DNA of 27,337 nucleotides from a virus (lineage: Duplodnaviria; Caudoviricetes), in the IMG/VR virus record IMGVR_UViG_3300006110_000031, positions 1 through 27,337 of that record; one strand, 5' to 3'. This document shows positions 9,064 through 27,337 of this stretch, piece by piece. Made by a program: the position numbers and the translations under genes. The notes below the pieces were generated by a model that saw only the letters and a list, made by a program, of their open reading frames with translations, was not told the origin of the DNA and made no database searches. The number at the start of each line of letters is the position of its first letter. Within the stretch, counting starts at the first letter, position 1.

Positions 9064-9267
9064 GGTTTTGCTCCTAGTGGTTGCTTTCTTTAAGGCTGGT
9101 TTAGGTTTTGGTGCTTGCTTGTTTAATGCTTTAGCCACATCCTCAGTATTGAAGTTTTTAGGCCACATTTTTGCTATTTGCCTGGCTCTATAGTTGTAAT
9201 AGGCCCATGCGATTACAAAGATTGCAAAGGCTGTAAAGACTAATGACATGACTAACTCATCCGACAT
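8920..9267 (-). CDS. Membrane-anchored Lys-rich protein (long form)
   Basis: Likely start MSDELV at 9267 with GAGG RBS; TM segment LVMSLVFTAFAIFVIAWAYY; continues in frame into the MPLKK peptide. Confidence 0.55.
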   Translation of the reverse strand: MSDELVMSLVFTAFAIFVIAWAYYNYRARQIAKMWPKNFNTEDVAKALNKQAPKPKPALKKATTRSKTMPLKKSTSQKAFKENIAKEVKEGKKPVKQAVAIAYAVKKEAAKKGKK

Positions 9268-9571
9268 TTTGGGCTTCCTCAAAACAAACATCCTGCCAAC
9301 TCATCACCAGATACTTAACCCCATCTTCATAGTAAGGGAAGTATTTGAGATATTCCTCGCCTGGGTCATCATTCATAGTGCCAAAGCGGATTCTTGCTCC
9401 AACTTCAATAGGCATATCTTCTCTGCGACCACCTGAAAGCTTTTTACCAGGGCCAACAGCAATGACTGTACCCATGTTTTCGACTTCTTTGTTATCAACA
9501 ATAATGATGCTAGAAAGCTCTCTAACATCAGGTTTGACTACAATTTTGTCTGCTAATGGCTTGAGTTTCAT
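9257..9571 (-). CDS. groES: Co-chaperonin GroES (Cpn10)-like protein
   Basis: MKLKPLADKIVVK..GTVIAVGPGK..MPIEVGARIRF..DGVKYLVMSWQDV matches the Cpn10 pattern. Confidence 0.88.
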   Translation of the reverse strand: MKLKPLADKIVVKPDVRELSSIIIVDNKEVENMGTVIAVGPGKKLSGGRREDMPIEVGARIRFGTMNDDPGEEYLKYFPYYEDGVKYLVMSWQDVCFEEAQNVG

Positions 9572-10176: not shown

Positions 10177-10204
10177 ATTTTGCCTTATTGGTTACCCATG
10201 TCAA
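10177..10204 (-). promoter_or_regulatory. Candidate late-operon promoter
   Basis: Minus strand perfect TTGACA (10204-10199), 16 bp spacer, CAAAAT. Confidence 0.4.
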
Positions 10205-12191
10205 GCACTTTAAATACTGGTTGATTTTTAAAAGAAATTGCCATATTTTGAGCTGAATCATGATAGCCAGAATAACCAGCTTCTTTAATCATTCTTTCCC
10301 AATCATTAGCTTTAGTTTCTGCATCAAGAATATTAAATTTATCTCGATTAAATGTATCAGCCATTTTTAATAAATTATCTGGGTCTTTTCTTACATCATA
10401 AGAATTTTCAATATTCGATTTATATTGATTTGGGCCAAGACCAGGCTCTTTCATCTCTGGGTTTAAGTAAAAATGAGTCCTGTCTTTAACAGCTCCAGGG
10501 GCTCTTAGTCTTTCAGCTTCCTGGCCTCTTATACCAAAACCATACTTTTTAACATCAGTCTGGCTTAAATTTGGGCTATTGCTCCAATGAAATCCTTCAA
10601 TAGTTTGACCATTTTCAGGAACTATATGTTCTTTCATATAATTTGGAACACCACCTCTGTAATCTAATTCAAGCATATCAGGGGGTAATGCCAGGCCTGT
10701 TTGTTTAGCATATTCCCATTGACCGCCTAATTCCCTAAGCTTTCTGTCCATTTCTGAGGTATCTTGGCCCATTTTTTCGGCTGCTGTCTTTTCTACCCTC
10801 ATCAAGGCCATTTCTTTTTCAAGGTCTGCATTGATTCCAGAATAATTTACAAAGCTGTTTTGACCTCTGGTTTCAGAAGCAGCAGCTATTTGAGCCAATG
10901 GGCTTAAAGTTTCTTTGTGAGCTCCATAAGCCAATTCTTCACCTTTTCTGCCAAAGGTTGAGCCTGTAGTGCCATGACCAATATAGTCATGAACTGCCCT
11001 AAATTTTTCATTAGTATTTAAGCCATAGTAAGGGTCAAATTCATTGAGAAAAGGATGCTCCTCACCACCTCTAAAAACATACATATGGTTTTTATTAAGG
11101 GCATCATCTAGCATTTCTCTAGAATTAGCATAATTGGCATTGCCACCATGAAAAGAAAAATTAACCCCTTTATTCACTAAATTATCAAATTGCTGGTTTA
11201 CTTCTTGGCGCAAAGCCCCATAGGATTTATGAACCAAATCATCATAATTTTGAATATCATGCTTTGCTAATAGTTCAGGATGCTTTGCTTTGTAATCCTG
11301 ATAAATGGCATCTTTTAAAGCTGGACTTACATCATCCTTAGATAATGTTTCATAAGCCCTGGCAATAGGATGTTGTTTTAAAAGGGATGAGCCTGGCATG
11401 GCTTTGATTTTTTCAATGTCAAAGTCTGGGTTATGTTCTTTGGCTATTTGGATGGCTTTATTTTGTTCCTGACCATTGAATGCACCGCTTCCTTGTGACT
11501 CTCTAAGTTTTCTATTTGCAAAGCTTGTTTGAAGCTTTTCTTGTCCAGAAGTGGCTTGATTCCATGCTTTTTCATTACTCTGAGGTAATCCTGATATTCG
11601 TCTAAATTGTCCTTCATCTTTATATCCTTTTTCTAAATTTTCTGGATTAAATATCTGATAATAAGTTCCTCCTGTCATATCAGTATGTTTTACACCTTGA
11701 TACCCTTGGCTAATTAGCTGATCTGTAAAATATTTGTCTGCCTCATCTCTAGATGCAAGTTTTACTTTTCCTTCATCAATTAACCTTCTTACAACAGCAC
11801 CCTTGCCTGTAGCTGCTACTTCTCCAATATTAGGATTGGTAGTAAACCAAATACTTCCATCAGCAGACTTTGCAATATCAAAACCTGCTTTTTCAATTTG
11901 TTTAGCTGCTTCTTTGCTTGTTCCATGAAATATTGCTGTTGCTCCCATAAAGTTTGGCAAATAATTTTGAGTAAATTCTTGCATTGCTTCTGGGTAATAG
12001 TTTGGATTTGGCTTGCCTAAAAAGTCAGTTTTATACAATCCAGCCATAGTTTTATCCATAGCTCTTTGATTTTTTTCAAAGTTTTCAGGCCATTCTTTCC
12101 AATATTTGTCTAATTTTGTAGACAAAGTTTCTCTTTGATTTTTTAATTTTTTATTATCAAATTGTTTTTGAATTTCATCTGCTAGAGCCAT
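10185..12191 (-). CDS. Multi-domain polyvalent-type protein: ART-like, HDxxGH metallopeptidase-like, second ART-like domain
   Basis: aa ~86-187 IFHGTS..GF..GSIWFTTN..GYQGV..YQIFNP; aa ~395-450 FRAVHDYIGHG..GEELAY..SETRGQNS; aa ~530-660 GFHWS..RTHFY..EAGYSGY. Confidence 0.6.
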   Translation of the reverse strand: MALADEIQKQFDNKKLKNQRETLSTKLDKYWKEWPENFEKNQRAMDKTMAGLYKTDFLGKPNPNYYPEAMQEFTQNYLPNFMGATAIFHGTSKEAAKQIEKAGFDIAKSADGSIWFTTNPNIGEVAATGKGAVVRRLIDEGKVKLASRDEADKYFTDQLISQGYQGVKHTDMTGGTYYQIFNPENLEKGYKDEGQFRRISGLPQSNEKAWNQATSGQEKLQTSFANRKLRESQGSGAFNGQEQNKAIQIAKEHNPDFDIEKIKAMPGSSLLKQHPIARAYETLSKDDVSPALKDAIYQDYKAKHPELLAKHDIQNYDDLVHKSYGALRQEVNQQFDNLVNKGVNFSFHGGNANYANSREMLDDALNKNHMYVFRGGEEHPFLNEFDPYYGLNTNEKFRAVHDYIGHGTTGSTFGRKGEELAYGAHKETLSPLAQIAAASETRGQNSFVNYSGINADLEKEMALMRVEKTAAEKMGQDTSEMDRKLRELGGQWEYAKQTGLALPPDMLELDYRGGVPNYMKEHIVPENGQTIEGFHWSNSPNLSQTDVKKYGFGIRGQEAERLRAPGAVKDRTHFYLNPEMKEPGLGPNQYKSNIENSYDVRKDPDNLLKMADTFNRDKFNILDAETKANDWERMIKEAGYSGYHDSAQNMAISFKNQPVFKVLDMGNQ

Positions 12192-18079: not shown

Positions 18080-18170
18080 AGGCAGTTAAGCCTACACTCA
18101 AGGATGCAACAAGTAAGGGCTTTTTAGGCTTTCGACCTTACAGTTAGTAGTTGCCAAATTGATGCCTTTA
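18077..18170. ncRNA. Candidate structured RNA with pseudoknot (strand undetermined)
   Basis: Three nested helices (8, 5 and 6 bp) plus a 7-bp crossing pair AAGCCTA/TAGGCTT fill the convergent intergenic gap. Confidence 0.55.
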
Positions 18171-18764
18171 TGCCCCTAATATATCCATAGCTTTATGGAT
18201 TTTATTAATTCGGTCATCTAGGCCTAAAGTACCACCATTGATGCGCTTGGTCATAGTATTCCAATCTTCAGCCTCAGCAAGGGCATTTAAGCCCTTTTTG
18301 TTCCAAAACCAGCCAGCAGATAGGCAAGCCCACTCAGGCTCTAAAAGAAGGCTTGGTTCGCTTGTAAAAGGCTGTCCTAAGGCATCGCCACATACTTGGT
18401 AATTAGACCGCCCTGTTAGCTGTATAACCCCTCTGCCATGAAACTTCCAGCCATCGCCATCTTGGGTATTGCCAAGGTCGGCTCTACCGCCATAAACCTT
18501 GTTTGCAATCATTTCAGGGTTGTTTGCATACTTTTCGGCAGTATTGGCATCAGGGAATCGAGAGGGCCATACTCGCATCAAAGCCCCTGCGCTGTAATGA
18601 AGGTTTTCTTCTAAGGTTTTAAAGTTATTAGATTCATGCTGACATTGTCCAATAAAGGCAGCTTGTCGCTTTGGAGTATCTATGCCATATTTGGAAAAAG
18701 TATCATTTAAAGGTTTAAGCCATTTTTGGTCTATGCCAAGGGCTTGTAATTGCTCATTCGTCAT
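18168..18764 (-). CDS. Endolysin, glycoside hydrolase family 19
   Basis: AAFIGQCQHES..LEENLHYS..GDGWKFHGRGVIQLTGRSNY..SAGWFW..TKRINGG..GL.DR. Confidence 0.93.
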   Translation of the reverse strand: MTNEQLQALGIDQKWLKPLNDTFSKYGIDTPKRQAAFIGQCQHESNNFKTLEENLHYSAGALMRVWPSRFPDANTAEKYANNPEMIANKVYGGRADLGNTQDGDGWKFHGRGVIQLTGRSNYQVCGDALGQPFTSEPSLLLEPEWACLSAGWFWNKKGLNALAEAEDWNTMTKRINGGTLGLDDRINKIHKAMDILGA

Positions 18765-20707: not shown

Positions 20708-21501
20708 GATTCGTAAATCTCCAATAATGTAATGACAGCAGTTGCACCTAAACCAATATTACCTAAGTTTTTATTATAAGTAAGAGTTCCACCGCCTGCT
20801 GCCATATAAACTGTATAAGTTGTAGAAGCAGTAGTATTAGGAGTATCTAAATAAGAAAAAGAATTAGATGCTAATGTTTCGCCACCACTAATACTTCCCA
20901 TAGTTGTAAAGACTGAGCCTGAACCAGCAAGGTTTGTAGTATTGCGATAAAGAGTAAATCCACTAAAGTTACCTGTAGAGCTATCAGCCCCAAAGCTAAC
21001 TAAAGCTAATATTTTGCTATTTAAAGAGCTAGGAGTAATAGTAGCTGTATGGCCTGTAGTTACCAATGAGTTAGAAGTAGTGGATGCAGTTGTTGTAAAT
21101 GTTTGCTGAACCATCTGAACAATGACTCCAGGGGCAGTTAATGCTCCTGTTACCGCCAATGTTCCTGAAACTGTAGCATTACCTATAACAGGCAAAGTAC
21201 CACCTACTACATTCAAAATGCCATATAAATTGTCATAGGTAGCAATTTGATTATTGCCTGAATCAGTCAATACAAATTTATATGAATTTCCATTTGTTAA
21301 CCAAATCTCTTGTGGAGGCCTGCCATCTGTTCCTAAAACAATAGGATTAGCATTTGCTGTGCTTCCTGAAGAAGTTGTATAAGTTGCTAAAGGAGTGCTT
21401 GAACCAGCTTGGTATGTATATAAAAGACCGCCAGCTAAAGGTAATCCTGTAGTTGTAAAAAATTGAAATCCATTACCAATGGGAGATAGTAAGACTGACA
21501 T
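20704..21501 (-). CDS. Short tail fibre / receptor-binding protein
   Basis: N-terminal anchor GLPLAGGLLYTYQAG..NANPIVL..GRPP..YKFVL; T/S-rich C-terminal domain ending ITLLEI. Confidence 0.78.
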   Translation of the reverse strand: MSVLLSPIGNGFQFFTTTGLPLAGGLLYTYQAGSSTPLATYTTSSGSTANANPIVLGTDGRPPQEIWLTNGNSYKFVLTDSGNNQIATYDNLYGILNVVGGTLPVIGNATVSGTLAVTGALTAPGVIVQMVQQTFTTTASTTSNSLVTTGHTATITPSSLNSKILALVSFGADSSTGNFSGFTLYRNTTNLAGSGSVFTTMGSISGGETLASNSFSYLDTPNTTASTTYTVYMAAGGGTLTYNKNLGNIGLGATAVITLLEIYES

Positions 21502-23468
21502 TATTGTTCCTTATATGTTGGATTTCCAGATAATAAGCCTCTAAGAGCTGTAGCTGGAACATTTTTAGTTCTAGATTCAAATTTAGGTATTTCACCCAAT
21601 CTCATCATATCGGCAAGTTTAGCTACAGAATTATTCTTATTAATATTAGCAATTTGTTTTGCGCCAAAAGTGCTTCCAGATAACAAAGCAGCAGATAGAT
21701 TTCCGCTTAAAGCATGAGTTCCTACTGTGCTTAAAACACCCATTACAGTATCAGGAGCAAATTTAGAAATAAGGTCTAAAGTTTTTTGAGTTGCGCTTCC
21801 TTTAGCAACTTGTTTTATTGCTTCTTGTTCTTCAGGTGTAAAAAGCCTCATGCGCTTATCATTTTTTGCCAAACTGTTCATTTGGTTTTTTAATGATGTT
21901 GATAAACTTTGATTAGTAAATTGAGCATCATTTACCATGTCATCAAAAATTTCAGCTTTTTTAAGTCTGGAATATTGAGTTCTAGCATCTTTCCATGCTT
22001 GAGCACCTTGAGGATTTCCAGCAGTTAAGTGTTGGTCTGGCGCATTTAAAACATAATCATCAAATTCATCTTTTAATTTTGAAGCCAACATTCTCACTTT
22101 AGGATTGCTAGAAACTTGCTCTCCAGCAATAATTTCTCTTAAAGCTTGTAACTCTAAATAATCTTTTGGCCTAGATGTATTTTTTAATTCATCTAATGCG
22201 CCTTTAATTCCTGAATAAGTGCTTGAATTTTCAGCATATCCAAATTGCCTTAAATCTTTACCAACTTGGTCCATATGAGCCGCGAATTTATCTGGAGCAA
22301 ATTGAATGCCTGATTTTTCAGCTTGGCTATAAAGATTTTTTGCGGTAGCAGCAAGTTGTTCTTGAGAAGGCGCATTTAAAGACCTTTGCTTTAATGAAAC
22401 TCCAAAAGGTGCGCCAACAGTAGCCCCAGCAAGCATAGCCAAATAGGGGTTGTCAGTTTTTTCATAAACAGCTTGTCCTGCCACAGCAGAAGGAATTGCA
22501 GCAGCAATTTGTGATTTAGGTGCAGCAGCAGCAGATTCAGCAACTCCTCTTACAAAAGGAGAAGCTGCTGTAGTAGCTAATCTAGTAACAGCAGGTAGTT
22601 CTGCAGCAGTTCCACCCATTGCACTACCAGCAGTTTCAATCATTCTTTCTGGGCCAGTTTGCGCTACAGGCAAACCAAGTCTAGTCATGTATTGTTGGAT
22701 TAAATCGCTTGGCATTCCTAATTTAGGAATATTAGTGCCTGCAAATTTGTTTATGCCACCTGTAACAGCATTAATACCAGTATTTAATACATCACCAACA
22801 GGAAGTGCAACAGAGCCTACAAGAGCACCAGCAGGGCCTGCCAAAGTTCCACCAACAGCAGCACCAGTTACAGCAGGAGTAGCACCTCTAGCAAACAATC
22901 CAGCAGCTCTAGGCAAAGTTAAATTAGGCTTTGGTTGTAGTTCTGATTCTGGAATATTGGTACTTCCAGGCAAAGATTCTGGGCTTACAAAAAGTTTATT
23001 GTTTTCAGCAAGGTTTACACCTTCTAAAACTTTATCAAGATACTTTTCTGGGTCTTTAGTTTTAAATCCACCATAAGCTTTCATGGCCTTTACATAATCG
23101 CCACCATGCTCTTTATGCAGTTGGCTAATGTAATAGTCCATTGCAGCTCTAGCTTCATCTTTATTGAATGGATTAAACTCCACTCCTTGTTTGTGAAGCA
23201 TGGCTACAGTTTCAGGCATAAATTGGCCTAAACCCATCGCACCAGAAGTAGGATTTACAGCAAGCGGATTGCCAGAACTTTCGGTTTGAATAACATTTTC
23301 CAAAAGCTTTGCTGGAGTTCCATAGCTTTTTTTAGTATCAAATTTGTTTGATTCTGGAGGTGTATAACCAGAAACTTGAACACCAGGTTTACCTGTTCCA
23401 GTTTTACCAGAACCAGGTAAAAGCGCAGGTGCTGCTAATGAATCTGGGTCTACAAAATCTAAAGCCAT
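21501..23468 (-). CDS. Ejection (internal virion) protein with lytic transglycosylase domain
   Basis: IQTESSGNP.AVNPTSGAMGLGQFMPET..AY SLT motifs; G/A-rich hydrophobic middle; helical C-terminus. Confidence 0.82.
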   Translation of the reverse strand: MALDFVDPDSLAAPALLPGSGKTGTGKPGVQVSGYTPPESNKFDTKKSYGTPAKLLENVIQTESSGNPLAVNPTSGAMGLGQFMPETVAMLHKQGVEFNPFNKDEARAAMDYYISQLHKEHGGDYVKAMKAYGGFKTKDPEKYLDKVLEGVNLAENNKLFVSPESLPGSTNIPESELQPKPNLTLPRAAGLFARGATPAVTGAAVGGTLAGPAGALVGSVALPVGDVLNTGINAVTGGINKFAGTNIPKLGMPSDLIQQYMTRLGLPVAQTGPERMIETAGSAMGGTAAELPAVTRLATTAASPFVRGVAESAAAAPKSQIAAAIPSAVAGQAVYEKTDNPYLAMLAGATVGAPFGVSLKQRSLNAPSQEQLAATAKNLYSQAEKSGIQFAPDKFAAHMDQVGKDLRQFGYAENSSTYSGIKGALDELKNTSRPKDYLELQALREIIAGEQVSSNPKVRMLASKLKDEFDDYVLNAPDQHLTAGNPQGAQAWKDARTQYSRLKKAEIFDDMVNDAQFTNQSLSTSLKNQMNSLAKNDKRMRLFTPEEQEAIKQVAKGSATQKTLDLISKFAPDTVMGVLSTVGTHALSGNLSAALLSGSTFGAKQIANINKNNSVAKLADMMRLGEIPKFESRTKNVPATALRGLLSGNPTYKEQ

Positions 23469-24928
23469 TATTTGCCCCTAGTAGCAATACCATTAATAAC
23501 TCGCAAATCTTCTTGAGCTTTTTTATATCTTTCTGATTTTTCCCCACCAAGTTCTTTGGTAATTTGAGTCAATCCTTGTGGGTCAATGCCAGCATTTCTC
23601 TTGGCATCAGCCAATCTAATAGAGTCTAAATTTAAATTAGAGTTCCATTTTTGCTGATAATCATTCGCATAGATAGGGTTGTTATTGCTAATTGTTTGTG
23701 ACTTGTCTACACCATGATTAAACATCTGAACACCATAAGCCAATGCTCTGTTATATCTAGAAGTATATTGAATGGCATCTGGATTCCAAGTAGTCTTACC
23801 TGCTGTTTGAACAGCTTGTTCAATTTGCTTCTGAGTACCGCCAGTAACACCCATTTTTCCTGCGCCATAAGCAGGATTTTGTGACAACAAATTGGTTTCA
23901 TTGGTCAATACATGGCCCAAAATATCATAGTTTGCTGCAGGATTTCTAGTATTAAATTCAGGAATGCCAACATAGTTTCCTTTAAGAGCATTCCATAATT
24001 GAGCACCTTGACCAGTATCGGTAACTTGAGATAGTTGAATAGCTTGATTAGCAGCAGATTCAATCTGAACAGCTTTACCAGCTTGCTCTCTTGAAGTATT
24101 TACTAAATTATTACCAATTTCTAAATTGGTTGAAGTTTGAGGTGAAAGAGCAGAAACTGCTGGTCTTTGCTGATTTGCAGGTTTATTCATTTGGTCAGGT
24201 GTAACACCGCCTTGACCACCACCGCCTACAGCAGAACCACCTACTTGACCGCCACCACCTACTAAATACTTTGTGCCTGGAGGCAAGCCAGAATTGTCCC
24301 CAGGTTGAGCAACAAGCTCTGTGCCTGGTGTTAAACCTAATGCAGTTGCTTGGCCAGCTTGAGTTCCTGGTGTTTGAGAGGAAAGTAATTGATTTCCTGT
24401 AGCCAAAGGAGCAGTAACACCACCAAGATTGGTTTGAGATGCTTTTGGATAAAGTGCATCTAATTGACCTTGTGCATTTAAAGACCTAGCCATACTTTGT
24501 GCAAGCCAAGCTTTTAATTGAGATAAATTTCCACTTGCAGGAAGCCCTGCTAAAGCTTGTTGAACAGCAGCATCAGGAGTTCCTGCATTTTTTGCATGAA
24601 CTTTTACTGAATCAATAATATCTTGAGCTGTTAAATCAGGCTTATTAATGAGCCTTTGTTGGTCTTGAATAGTATTGGTTAAATGAGCCTGAAAGTTTTG
24701 TAATTGCGAAGTATTTGCTTCAGCAGTTGCCTTTCTAGCATTGGCTTGCCCTTGTTCAATTTCAGAAGGCAATAAAGCTTTCTTTTTTTGAACTTCAAGA
24801 TTTTTTCCAGTAAGGTCAAGAATATCTCCCAAAGAAGTAGCTTTAGGAGCATTTTGATTTCCATAAATACTAGGGTCAATAGTTTGACCTAATTGTGGAA
24901 CTGAAACTCCGCTTGTGCTGATTGCCAT
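23468..24928 (-). CDS. Ejection / DNA-transfer protein
   Basis: 486 aa, Q/A/G/N-rich; position equivalent to P22 gp20. Confidence 0.65.
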   Translation of the reverse strand: MAISTSGVSVPQLGQTIDPSIYGNQNAPKATSLGDILDLTGKNLEVQKKKALLPSEIEQGQANARKATAEANTSQLQNFQAHLTNTIQDQQRLINKPDLTAQDIIDSVKVHAKNAGTPDAAVQQALAGLPASGNLSQLKAWLAQSMARSLNAQGQLDALYPKASQTNLGGVTAPLATGNQLLSSQTPGTQAGQATALGLTPGTELVAQPGDNSGLPPGTKYLVGGGGQVGGSAVGGGGQGGVTPDQMNKPANQQRPAVSALSPQTSTNLEIGNNLVNTSREQAGKAVQIESAANQAIQLSQVTDTGQGAQLWNALKGNYVGIPEFNTRNPAANYDILGHVLTNETNLLSQNPAYGAGKMGVTGGTQKQIEQAVQTAGKTTWNPDAIQYTSRYNRALAYGVQMFNHGVDKSQTISNNNPIYANDYQQKWNSNLNLDSIRLADAKRNAGIDPQGLTQITKELGGEKSERYKKAQEDLRVINGIATRGK

Positions 24929-24937
24929 AATTTATTC

Positions 24938-25726
24938 CTAAGCTATTTGAATTGGTGTAGATGGAGCTTGAATACCAAATCCACCACCTGTTCCACCAGA
25001 ACCATAATAATTTGGGCTTGAATTACCAATGGTGTTTAAACTTGTTCCACCGCTAGGTATAGAAATTGGTGCATTATTACCACTATTCATTGCGCTATAA
25101 GCACCCATAGTGCCTATTGTATTGGCTGTGCTACCATAAATATTGCCTTGAGCAATTTGAGAAGCAGCAGTAGCATTGGCTGAACCTATTCCAAGATTTG
25201 CCACATTAGTTGCTGTTCCTAATTGAGCATTAGACTGTCCAGTTGTACCTGCAAGACCTAAATTAGCATTTGCCAAATCAATAGCAGCAATATTGCCTCT
25301 TTGAGCTTGAAAATTATTAAATGCATTTTGATAAGCATTTTGAGCATAATTTTGGGTATAGTCACTTAGTGACTTTAAAGCATTTCCACCTATAGCACCG
25401 CCAGAAGCATTGCTGGCATTTAAATTGGTCTTTTGTCCAATATCTAATCCAAAAGCATAATTAGGAGCTAAATTAGCATTTAAATCTTGATTGCTAAATT
25501 GTTCATTAAAATAAGGATTGCCAGAAGTAAGGCTTGCTAATGGAGTTGCGCCATAATTAGCATAAGGAATAAAATTTTGAGATGCTGTATTTCCAGCAGC
25601 AAGTATATTACTTTGCTGTTGTGTAGCAGCATTTGCTTGAGTTTGAGCAGCATTTTGTTGCCCTTGACTAGACAAATAACCTGCTGCAACTGAACCTACA
25701 ACTACTGCTGTTGCGACTCCTGACAT
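24938..25726 (-). CDS. DNA-transfer (pilot) protein, P22 gp7-like
   Basis: Hydrophobic A/V/G N-terminus, AAQTQANAA, PY..G, P.YAF, GGNALK.L.DY.Q.YA. Confidence 0.78.
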   Translation of the reverse strand: MSGVATAVVVGSVAAGYLSSQGQQNAAQTQANAATQQQSNILAAGNTASQNFIPYANYGATPLASLTSGNPYFNEQFSNQDLNANLAPNYAFGLDIGQKTNLNASNASGGAIGGNALKSLSDYTQNYAQNAYQNAFNNFQAQRGNIAAIDLANANLGLAGTTGQSNAQLGTATNVANLGIGSANATAASQIAQGNIYGSTANTIGTMGAYSAMNSGNNAPISIPSGGTSLNTIGNSSPNYYGSGGTGGGFGIQAPSTPIQIA

Positions 25727-26560
25727 TTAATTTCTCCTTATTGCAAGATTTAGGGCTTGACGATAATCAATAGTAATTTCTTCCCCCAAATTACCGCCTT
25801 GGCATCCATTTATAGCCTTATTTGCCACTAAATCAATATTGCCATTATCCCTCAAAACCATAATTCCATTAGCATTTTTTGCATGATTTGTATATCTTCC
25901 TACAGGGGTTCTTTTGCCATCTATGCGAGCTGGAGCAATTACCTCTCCTTGAGCAATATTTCCTGTAGCAAATACACCTTTTCCATCAATTCTTGAATTA
26001 GCAATCATCATTTTGTAATTGCCAAAAGGCATGGGAATTTGGTCATCCATGTTTTCTGTCTGTTTTCTAACAGTTTCATGGTCAAAACCATATTCAGCAA
26101 TAGCTAAATAATAATCAGCTACATCAGAAGAATGGTCTAAAGTTAATAATAAATTTTGAGCTTTTTGATTTTCTTGCCAAGTTATGCTTTTTTCAAGAAA
26201 CATAGATTCAAGCTTTTCTACATCGGTTTCCAAAGTCGCATAAACATTTTGCCAAACCATTTTTTCATGAATATATCCAATTTTTCGACCTGGCTTTGAA
26301 ACAAAAACTTGAGGAGCAATTAATTCATTTTTTGAGCCATCCTCATTGACCATTGTTACTCTACCAGAAATCATTATGTTTAAATGTTCGGTTTTTTGAT
26401 AATGACCTATGGACAATGTACCAGCAGGAATGGTGACTTCTCGGATGTAGATATTAGGGCCAAAGCGATGCACTACAGGACAATCTACTTGTTCATGCTT
26501 TAAAAATTCAGCTTCTAATTGCTGAACTTTTTCTTCAGTTATAACTTGTAAACTAGACAT
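25727..26560 (-). CDS. Cupin-like domain fused to SET-domain methyltransferase
   Basis: Likely start MSSLQ at 26560. N-terminal HRFGPNIYIREVTIPAGT..GHYQKTEH cupin. C-terminal SRIDGKGVFA..I..GEVI, RYTNHA, GEEITIDY SET motifs. Confidence 0.82.
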   Translation of the reverse strand: MSSLQVITEEKVQQLEAEFLKHEQVDCPVVHRFGPNIYIREVTIPAGTLSIGHYQKTEHLNIMISGRVTMVNEDGSKNELIAPQVFVSKPGRKIGYIHEKMVWQNVYATLETDVEKLESMFLEKSITWQENQKAQNLLLTLDHSSDVADYYLAIAEYGFDHETVRKQTENMDDQIPMPFGNYKMMIANSRIDGKGVFATGNIAQGEVIAPARIDGKRTPVGRYTNHAKNANGIMVLRDNGNIDLVANKAINGCQGGNLGEEITIDYRQALNLAIRRN

Positions 26561-26789
26561 TGTAATAAGGAACTTTATAAGGCTTACCAGCAACAGTAAT
26601 ATTGATAAATCCAGCAGGGTTAGTAGGCAATACTGCTGCGCCTTTGGAAGCATTAGGCGAGCTACTAAAATTTAGTAAATTCAAAAAATACTGTTGCCAA
26701 GACCTAGTTGGCATCTTTGTAGACTCATCTAGCAAAGGGGTCTGTGGATAAGGATTTAATTGAGAATTGCCATAAATCTGATTTGCCAT
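26553..26789 (-). CDS. Small tail-associated protein
   Basis: 78 aa; P..PLLD..TRSWQQYF..LP.NPAGFI..KVPYY; coupled to the gp10-like gene. Confidence 0.68.
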   Translation of the reverse strand: MANQIYGNSQLNPYPQTPLLDESTKMPTRSWQQYFLNLLNFSSSPNASKGAAVLPTNPAGFINITVAGKPYKVPYYNV

Positions 26790-27337
26790 TAGTTTTCCCC
26801 TTCTGTAGCTTTAAGGTTAGCTGACACAATTACAGCCTTAATAGGGTCAGAAACCGATACCTCAAAGATTCTATCCCTAGACCAGCCTAATCTGCGCCAA
26901 ATAGCTCGATTTTGATATTTGCCAATTTTGCCAATACTGACCCAATGTTCATTAGACCAAGTAGAACCGCCATCATTTGACCATCTGAGCATTGCTTGTG
27001 GGTTTTTTCCTTGCCCTGTAGATAAGCCTACACCAGGCTGAAACTGAATTTGCATTTCATCAAAATATTGCCTTTGCAAGTCAGTTACTAAATGAGGGCA
27101 TCTTCGCAATCTGCGAATTTCACCGCCATTGTCTGTGTAGTTATTAGGGTCTAACTCATAAATATTGCCATTTTGCCAATCCCCTACAAGAACCATATCT
27201 TGAAAGTTTGCTTGGCAATTTGACCGATGGCGATGGTAAACATTATTGGAGTCTACCCATAACCACTTATGCCACATTTGAGTGGATAAGTCATAGCACC
27301 AAGTCAAATCAAGGGTTGGGAAAGAAAGAACATAAAC
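26789..27337 (-). CDS. P22 gp10-like tail hub / DNA-stabilisation protein, C-terminal part (enters from the right edge)
   Basis: LSFPTLDLTWCYD..WH..LVGDWQNG.IY..PQAMLRWSNDGG.TWS..GKIGKY..RAIWRRLG..RDRIFEV..SDP. Confidence 0.88.
   Translation of the reverse strand, partial: VYVLSFPTLDLTWCYDLSTQMWHKWLWVDSNNVYHRHRSNCQANFQDMVLVGDWQNGNIYELDPNNYTDNGGEIRRLRRCPHLVTDLQRQYFDEMQIQFQPGVGLSTGQGKNPQAMLRWSNDGGSTWSNEHWVSIGKIGKYQNRAIWRRLGWSRDRIFEVSVSDPIKAVIVSANLKATEGEN

What the first reader, a model, noticed from the sequence alone, without database searches (positions are those of the whole stretch)
25727..26560. Cupin-SET lysine methyltransferase fusion inside the tail/ejection module
Seen: a 277-aa ORF joining a cupin-like barrel to a minimal SET domain carrying the three SET signatures (GKGVFA, RYTNHA, EEITIDY), placed between the gp10-like hub genes and the gp7-like pilot gene. 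Known: SET domains are SAM-dependent lysine methyltransferases, and in P22-like phages this slot holds a small assembly factor (gp14). Inference: the phage carries a two-activity protein-modifying enzyme that may act on ejection or tail proteins during assembly, or be injected to methylate host proteins. The cupin metal motif reads HYQKTEH, so that half may be non-catalytic.
Basis: partly seen in the sequence, partly recalled or inferred. Interest (0 to 1): 0.8.

Follow-up and report, generated by a model that had tools for sequence, protein, structure and literature searches.

The report
Phage SET enzyme targeting ejection protein
A short-tailed freshwater phage encodes a two-domain protein, a cupin barrel joined to a stripped-down SET methyltransferase fold, that is predicted to grip the front end of the neighbouring DNA-ejection protein and likely methylates its first residue, a serine, which would be a new reaction for SET enzymes and an unstudied step in building phage particles.

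Summary
The ORF is on the minus strand (25727-26560, 277 aa) between the tail-hub genes and the gp7-like ejection gene. Cupin and SET folds are supported by profile and structure searches. SET motifs are over 90% conserved in a large uncharacterised phage family. The scan had already found this family on two other genomes.

New here is a candidate substrate. Residue 2 of the downstream ejection protein is Ser in 82 of 84 cupin-SET loci, against 54 of 103 cupin-only loci. On a tree only that position is frozen when SET is present (p 0.004; 0.012 after de-duplication). A complex model docks that N-terminus on the protein (0.87, best control 0.20). The window's gp7 has no lysine before residue 99.

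Best reading: the cupin binds the ejection protein's N-terminus and the SET methylates the Ser alpha-amine during assembly (about 40%). Against it: the model places the peptide on the cupin, not in the SET active site; the independent-pairs test is underpowered; nothing was assayed. Injection into the host has no support.

The parts
25727..26560 (-). Cupin-SET fusion ORF, 277 aa (P0001; phrog_34170)
26186..26536 (-). Cupin domain (about aa 9-125); conserved H31, F33, Y38, R40, K93, W103; metal ligands decayed (Q55, Y107); predicted docking site of the ejection-protein N-terminus
26024..26185 (-). Helical linker (aa 126-179); its second half resembles the N-terminus of stand-alone phage SET proteins
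   Evidence: by eye; L150 matches phrog_34170 positions 157-280
25751..26023 (-). Minimal SET domain (aa 180-270): G193-x-G195, N225-H226, E261/Y266; SET-I insert almost absent; no post-SET
25793..25807 (-). GCxGG insert (aa 252-256) in the SET; glycines kept in 110-119 of 135 fused homologues, seen in 0 of 19 stand-alone SETs; touches the docked peptide in the complex model
24938..25726 (-). gp7-like first ejection protein, 262 aa, hydrophobic N-terminus; proposed client and substrate
25721..25723 (-). Ser2 codon (TCA) of the gp7-like gene: the residue that co-varies with SET presence
26553..26789 (-). 78-aa ORF between hub and cupin-SET; no family hit
26789..27337 (-). 3' part of the gp10-like tail hub gene, cut by the window end
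23468..24928 (-). 486-aa ORF, second ejection protein by position only
21501..23468 (-). 655-aa third ejection protein with an SLT transglycosylase domain

Best explanation
This gene encodes a cupin-plus-mini-SET protein in the phage's ejection-gene block, which likely acts during assembly by gripping the hydrophobic N-terminus of the neighbouring first ejection protein through its cupin (predicted) and likely methylating the free alpha-amine of that protein's N-terminal serine with SAM (inferred, untested). Steps and their basis: (1) two folds and conserved SET motifs: shown by sequence, profile and model. (2) The gene sits directly before the first ejection gene: shown. (3) The cupin binds residues 2-13 of that protein by strand pairing: model only. 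(4) Host enzymes remove the formyl-Met and expose Ser2: recalled general rule. (5) The SET transfers methyl groups to the Ser amine: inferred from the Ser2 constraint and the lack of nearby Lys. (6) The cap tunes packaging, stability or membrane insertion of the ejection protein: speculation. The cupin is the ancient, widespread part; the SET is an add-on that was gained or lost repeatedly.
For: Ser2 in 82 of 84 fused against 54 of 103 cupin-only loci; 39 of 41 against 17 of 48 where the genes do not overlap; both TCN and AGY codons are used. On a cupin tree, position 2 changes 2 times in 22.1 length units with SET and 26 times in 47.7 without (p 0.0037); positions 3-12 show no difference (p 0.13-0.89). 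Repeated on 118 rows de-duplicated at 70% with IQ-TREE: 2 against 20, p 0.012. All 22 fused rows outside the main clade have Ser. The next ejection gene shows no Ser bias (4 of 66 against 2 of 88). Complex model: score 0.87, best of 3 controls 0.20; the mark was reached by 116 of 157 solved and 2 of 215 mismatched pairs; runs agree in at least 44% of contacts; partner pLDDT at least 49. The SET's GCxGG loop is in that interface. The window's gp7 has no Lys, Arg or His before residue 99. SET pN/pS 0.06-0.20 in 8 relatives. The same slot holds GNAT and Asp/Asn-hydroxylase-family genes in related phages.
Against: In the complex model the peptide touches the cupin and the SET loop 253-256, but the SET catalytic residues N225, H226 and Y266 are not in the interface list. 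One of three runs scored 0.56, and the job lies outside the tool's calibration (own alignment, ligand present). The independent-pairs test found only 6 supported pairs and was not significant (median p 1 and 0.5). The Ser2 pattern was noticed in data that were then used in the test, and p 0.012 does not survive correction for 11 positions. Two fused loci with intact-looking SET motifs have Ala2 or Thr2. The SET lacks most of SET-I (7 residues against 42 in MLL1) and any post-SET, which shape the substrate channel in known SETs (recalled). A review lists only seven-beta-strand enzymes as N-alpha methyltransferases (PMC10293735). Mature P22 gp7 gave a readable N-terminal sequence (PMC8402733), so the slot's factor need not block the N-terminus. 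gp13-like or GNAT genes occur beside the cupin in some loci, so the slot's enzymes are not simple substitutes.
Confidence: 0.4

Rival explanations
1. The SET is an ordinary lysine methyltransferase acting on a Lys further along gp7 or on another virion protein; Ser2 is fixed only because the cupin pocket or Met removal needs it.
For: Closest solved relatives are lysine methyltransferases. 59 of 84 partners have a Lys in residues 2-40. The model does not put the N-terminus in the SET site.
Against: No Lys enrichment next to SET, and 25 of 84 partners have none in that stretch. Ser2 is fixed beside several unrelated cupin pocket types once SET is fused (22 of 22 outside the main clade), while the same pocket types tolerate Ala or Thr without SET (for example the L094/L044 clade).
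Confidence: 0.22
2. The cupin performs the chemistry on the N-terminus (an oxidation or other processing) and the SET methylates its product or a small molecule.
For: The peptide's first residues lie near cupin pocket residues R40, E41, H53, Q55, R92, W103 and N105. Cupin-only forms keep H55, H59 and H107 (99%, 77%, 81%), and one clade has a 4-His-like set. The cupin-only profile matches metal cupins (best E 3.4e-7).
Against: In the main fused clade, including this protein, two of those histidines are Gln and Tyr. Cupin-only partners begin with S, A, T, P, F or W, which no single side-chain reaction fits.
Confidence: 0.15
3. The protein is a pure assembly chaperone that shields the hydrophobic N-terminus; the SET half is structural and does not transfer methyl groups.
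For: Most family members lack SET altogether (6 of 80 cupin-pattern loci are fused). SET-I and post-SET are missing. The T7 counterpart gp14 is water-insoluble (PMC8954989).
Against: G193, G195, N225, H226 and Y266 are kept in 129-133 of 135 diverse homologues. The SET module also exists as a stand-alone gene (19 of 80 SET-pattern loci). This reading does not explain Ser2.
Confidence: 0.12
4. The protein is packaged and injected, or expressed late, to methylate host proteins.
For: It lies among genes for injected proteins. Its closest minimal relative, vSET, is a viral histone methyltransferase.
Against: It co-varies with, and is modelled to bind, a phage protein. No virion proteomics placing it in particles was found.
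Confidence: 0.07
5. The cupin half is a short tail fibre or adhesin, as databases label it.
For: PHROG 12032 and 24280 labels and RefSeq names of cupin-only homologues.
Against: The fold is a compact cupin, and the gene sits in the gp13/gp14 slot of both T7-like and P22-like phages. The label looks like a propagated mis-annotation (inference).
Confidence: 0.02

Closest known systems
PBCV-1 vSET (A612L) and SET cores of MLL1, EZH2 and SETD8
   Same: SET fold with GxG, NHxxxPN-type and GEEITxDY motifs; profile E 7e-7 (vSET) to 1e-10 (MLL1); structural matches to EZH2 and SETD8.
   Different: SET-I cut to about 7 residues; no post-SET; fused to a cupin through a helical linker; extra GCxGG loop; encoded by a bacterial virus; the inferred acceptor is an N-terminal Ser amine, not a histone Lys.
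T7 gp13 / P22 gp14 slot factors and slot GNATs
   Same: Same gene position just before the first ejection protein. Cobaviruses have a GNAT there (PMC6775973, passages). GNATs fill the slot in relatives of this phage.
   Different: Unrelated fold; gp13-like or GNAT genes can sit beside the cupin or cupin-SET in one locus. I did not establish the fold of P22 gp14 (Pfam gives only DUF2824).
N-alpha methyltransferases NTMT1/2, METTL13, PrmA
   Same: The proposed reaction. PrmA also pairs a substrate-recognition domain with a catalytic domain (PMC10293735, section 6).
   Different: All of those are seven-beta-strand enzymes; this is a SET fold, and the X-P-K/R motif is absent from the partner.
TM1459-type small cupins
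   Same: Best structural match of the N-terminal half (8awp, E 7.7e-5).
   Different: The histidine set is incomplete here (H53, Q55, H59, K93), and a protein N-terminus is the predicted ligand.

Membership tests
SET-domain superfamily | SET fold | tested here: met
   Model pLDDT 95.6; Foldseek hits EZH2 and SETD8 with prob 1.00; profile E 1.2e-10 to MLL1. Single-sequence Pfam score 21.3 is under the 22.4 cut-off, but homologues pass.
SET-domain superfamily | SAM-binding GxG and NH motifs and the motif-IV Tyr | tested here: met
   G193 129/135, G195 133/135, N225 131/135, H226 129/135, Y266 130/135. The query has Ala where 127/135 have Pro230.
Canonical SET lysine methyltransferases | SET-I insert, YxG motif and post-SET forming the lysine channel (features recalled) | tested here: not met
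   7 residues against 42 in MLL1 between the aligned blocks; no Tyr at the YxG position; the chain ends 11 residues after Y266.
Canonical SET lysine methyltransferases | SAM-dependent methyl transfer to a lysine epsilon-amine | not testable with these tools
   Needs an assay. Indirect evidence points away from Lys on gp7.
Cupin superfamily | Double-stranded beta-helix barrel | tested here: met
Metal-dependent cupins | Full His/Glu metal-ligand set | tested here: not met
   H53 and H59 are present, but Q55, K93 and Y107 replace histidines found in cupin-only or 4-His forms.
N-alpha methyltransferases (NTMT/PrmA type) | Seven-beta-strand fold | tested here: not met
   The fold is SET; it may work like them without being a member.
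N-alpha methyltransferases (NTMT/PrmA type) | Methylates a protein alpha-amine | tested here: inconclusive
   Ser2 co-variation is for; the peptide pose outside the SET site is against.
T7 gp13 / P22 gp14 families | Match to PF11090 or PF11039 | tested here: not met
   No such hit; only the position is shared.

The most novel reading that the evidence does not exclude
Tailed phages carry a dedicated N-terminal maturation station for their first, membrane-piercing ejection protein: a cupin reader that docks the N-terminus, plus exchangeable writers matched to residue 2 (SET with Ser, GNAT with Gly, a 2OG hydroxylase with Pro). The SET here would be the first SET-fold protein alpha-N-methyltransferase.
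Probability: 0.3. Interest if true: 0.85.

Novelty: new variant of a known kind. Interest (0 to 1): 0.64.

Why it matters
The gene before the first ejection protein (T7 gp13, P22 gp14) is a long-standing blank in podophage assembly. This locus gives a named candidate substrate and residue, so the question becomes a one-step mass-spectrometry test in E. coli or in cultured phage P26218. If right, SET folds can methylate protein N-termini, phage ejection proteins are chemically matured, and a cupin family with over a thousand clusters now labelled 'short tail fibre' needs re-annotation.

Tried and rejected
The + strand reading is closed. A single-sequence PDB search gave only two weak cupin hits, E 0.4-0.6. 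The diverse alignment could not seed a locus search, so degenerate DNA patterns were used. The prokaryote genome scan gave one cupin-only locus.

Gene-overlap constraint as the cause of Ser2 is rejected: the bias is strongest without overlap. A general Ser2 preference of these phages is rejected by the next-gene control. A conserved Lys target near the gp7 N-terminus was not found. A strict one-for-one swap of GNAT and cupin is rejected because they co-occur. A single origin of the fusion is not supported: 13 changes on the best tree, at least 6 forced by starred branches, with a short alignment and long branches. The independent-pairs test is uninformative.

VIA-align searches never ran, and the cupin-only fold had not finished, so the cupin's nearest structural family is not resolved beyond. 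The fold of P22 gp14 remains open. No coordinates were available, so the distance from Ser2 to the SET site was not measured.

Ten literature searches found no study of this family; supplements were not read.

Full report
OBSERVATION. The window is a whole linear virus record of 27,337 bases, estimated 79% complete, with P22-like gene order. It lies after a gp10-like hub (phrog_578) and a 78-aa ORF, and directly before a gp7-like 'DNA ejection' gene (phrog_598). Its stop abuts that gene's ATG. A 73%-identical homologue is recorded in Polynucleobacter asymbioticus and a 52%-identical one in Rhodoferax phage P26218, so a freshwater betaproteobacterial host is likely (inference).

FOLDS. Pfam SET alone is borderline (E 3.6e-4, under the cut-off). 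A profile of 139 homologues finds MLL1 at E 1.2e-10 and vSET at 7.2e-7. The AlphaFold2 model has pLDDT 95.6 and pTM 0.91, and Foldseek returns small cupins, EZH2 and SETD8. Among 135 diverse homologues, G193, G195, N225, H226, E261 and Y266 are kept in 129-133. SET pN/pS against 8 relatives is 0.06-0.20. The SET is unusually bare: 7 residues replace the 42 of MLL1 between the aligned blocks, and there is no post-SET. In the cupin, H55 and H107, kept in 99% and 81% of cupin-only rows, are mostly Gln and Tyr in fused rows, which fits loss of a metal site in this clade.

FAMILY AND SLOT. 1443 of 1862 candidates were homologues; 285 clusters at 50% identity reach E 1e-30. Cupin-only forms fill the same slot in P22-like phages (RSK1, BA3, X14, a Vibrio phage) and in T7-like phiAp1, where T7 has gp13; they are often labelled 'short tail fiber'. 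Of 80 loci picked by hub similarity alone, 13 ended before gp7. Of the other 67, 14 held cupin-SET, 31 cupin alone, 4 cupin plus an Asp/Asn-hydroxylase-like gene, 16 a non-cupin protein, and 2 nothing at my thresholds; these include near copies. Three of the four hydroxylase-like proteins pass the Pfam cut-off. Three representatives of the eleven 148-151-aa non-cupin proteins pass the GNAT cut-off, and the four tested of the five 122-135-aa ones give weak or no hits. A GNAT at the T7 gp13 position was noted for cobaviruses (PMC6775973, passages). gp13-like or GNAT genes also occur beside cupin or cupin-SET (L156, L261, L286, L308). Of the first 80 SET-pattern loci, 61 were fused and 19 stand-alone; of the first 80 cupin-pattern loci, 6 were fused. 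SET presence changes 13 times on the cupin tree, at least 6 forced by starred branches.

THE SUBSTRATE CLUE. From 222 cupin loci, 15 (5 fused, 10 cupin-only) were dropped because my filter found no downstream ORF with a hydrophobic N-terminus; one start was corrected by hand; 187 non-identical rows remained. Residue 2 of the first ejection protein is Ser in 82 of 84 fused and 54 of 103 cupin-only rows; without gene overlap it is 39 of 41 against 17 of 48; both TCN and AGY codons are used. With three doubtful cupin-only starts left out, position 2 changes 2 times in 22.1 branch units with SET and 26 times in 47.7 without (p 0.0037), while positions 3-12 do not differ. After de-duplication at 70% and a new tree the counts are 2 and 20 (p 0.012). 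All 22 fused rows outside the main clade have Ser, and the next ejection gene shows no such bias (4 of 66 against 2 of 88). Limits: the pattern was seen in these data before it was tested; the second p does not survive correction for 11 positions; independent pairs were too few (6 supported; none or almost none against; not significant). The window's gp7 has Lys only at 99 and 118, and Lys in residues 2-40 is not enriched next to SET (59 of 84 against 71 of 103).

COMPLEX MODEL. Cupin-SET with SAH and gp7 residues 2-46 scored 0.87 (runs 0.87, 0.87, 0.56), best of 3 controls 0.20. The mark was reached by 116 of 157 solved and 2 of 215 mismatched pairs, counts that hold only roughly for this job. 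Runs agree in at least 44% of contacts; partner pLDDT is at least 49. The first 12 peptide residues contact the cupin (16-29, 40-55, 92, 96, 103-105, 122-128) and the SET's GCxGG loop, which is typical of fused forms and absent from the 19 stand-alone SETs. The catalytic N225, H226 and Y266 are not listed. So the model supports binding through the cupin; it neither shows nor excludes that Ser2 reaches the SET site.

MECHANISM. Most likely the cupin docks the newly made ejection protein by its hydrophobic N-terminus (about 70%), the SET is an active SAM-dependent enzyme (about 80%), and its acceptor is the Ser2 alpha-amine exposed after Met removal (about 40% overall; the Met-removal rule is recalled). 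What the cap would do is not shown. Rivals are Lys methylation elsewhere, cupin catalysis, a pure chaperone, and a host-directed effector. One caution from the literature: mature P22 gp7, cut by host OpdA, gave a readable N-terminal sequence, and its first 20 residues are nearly dispensable (PMC8402733, passages), so N-terminal capping is not universal in this slot.

COMPARISON AND NOVELTY. It is a SET-superfamily member by fold and motifs, but it fails the canonical channel features and its acceptor is untested. A review names only seven-beta-strand enzymes as N-alpha methyltransferases (PMC10293735, passages and section 6). Ten searches found no study of this family. Papers seen as passages only, none read whole, supplements unseen: PMC9728967, PMC8954989, PMC6775973, PMC12407071, PMC3765740, PMC2938197, PMC10172136, PMC10293735, PMC11482910, PMC8402733, PMC10975493, PMC9022992, PMC13552765. 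PMC2938197 proposes that hydroxylase and sulfotransferase genes modify co-encoded tail-collar proteins, a parallel idea. Two earlier scan reports describe the same fusion on other genomes; word searches for the Ser2 or slot idea found nothing. Verdict: a real and common phage family, a new variant of a known kind, made interesting by a specific and cheaply testable substrate prediction. Interest 0.64.

Noticed in passing
L046, L050, L061, L062, L065, L071, L073, L075 (slot after hub): All 8 loci with a 148/150-aa GNAT-type slot gene and gp7 in view have gp7 starting Met-Gly; L102, L103 and L116 (151-aa GNAT) have a long leader ending in a Gly run, recalling the cleaved leader of P22 gp7. Few independent lineages.
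   Followed up: partly
L042, L048, L060, L069: All 4 loci with cupin plus an Asp/Asn-hydroxylase-family gene have Pro at gp7 residue 2, and their cupins keep a 4-His-like set; related loci without the hydroxylase have Pro, Phe or Ile.
   Followed up: partly
L129, L138, L140, L141, L150, L166, L171 and others: Stand-alone mini-SET genes (121-223 aa, with the helical N-terminus, no GCxGG loop) occur in other phages, some apparently beside portal, scaffold or terminase genes.
   Followed up: partly
L139, L181 (fused), L289 (cupin only): The cupin or cupin-SET also follows baseplate-hub or tail genes of long-tailed phages (phrog_2048 for L181 and L289); in L139 and L289 the next gene again starts with a hydrophobic stretch.
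   Followed up: partly
L023:5519-5965; L133:5316-6062; L135:2460-3332: Further enzyme-like genes directly upstream of cupin-SET: a sulfotransferase-like protein (by eye; PHROG calls it hydrolase), a glycosyltransferase (phrog_12406, E 5e-6) and a 290-aa protein with no hit.
   Followed up: partly
L044, L057, L074, L081, L094, L110, L115: Cupin-only clade (173-177 aa) nested with fused forms at 100% support; it keeps a stub after the cupin and its gp7 starts with Ala, while the fused sisters have Ser.
   Followed up: yes
window 10185-12191 (-): 668-aa ORF between the Nin-like region and the terminase genes; only hit is phrog_3170, unknown function.
   Followed up: no
window 9257-9571 (-): 104-aa ORF that looks like GroES by eye, upstream of the terminase genes; not scanned.
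   Followed up: no
window 18168-18764 (-): GH19 endolysin at the end of the late operon.
   Followed up: no
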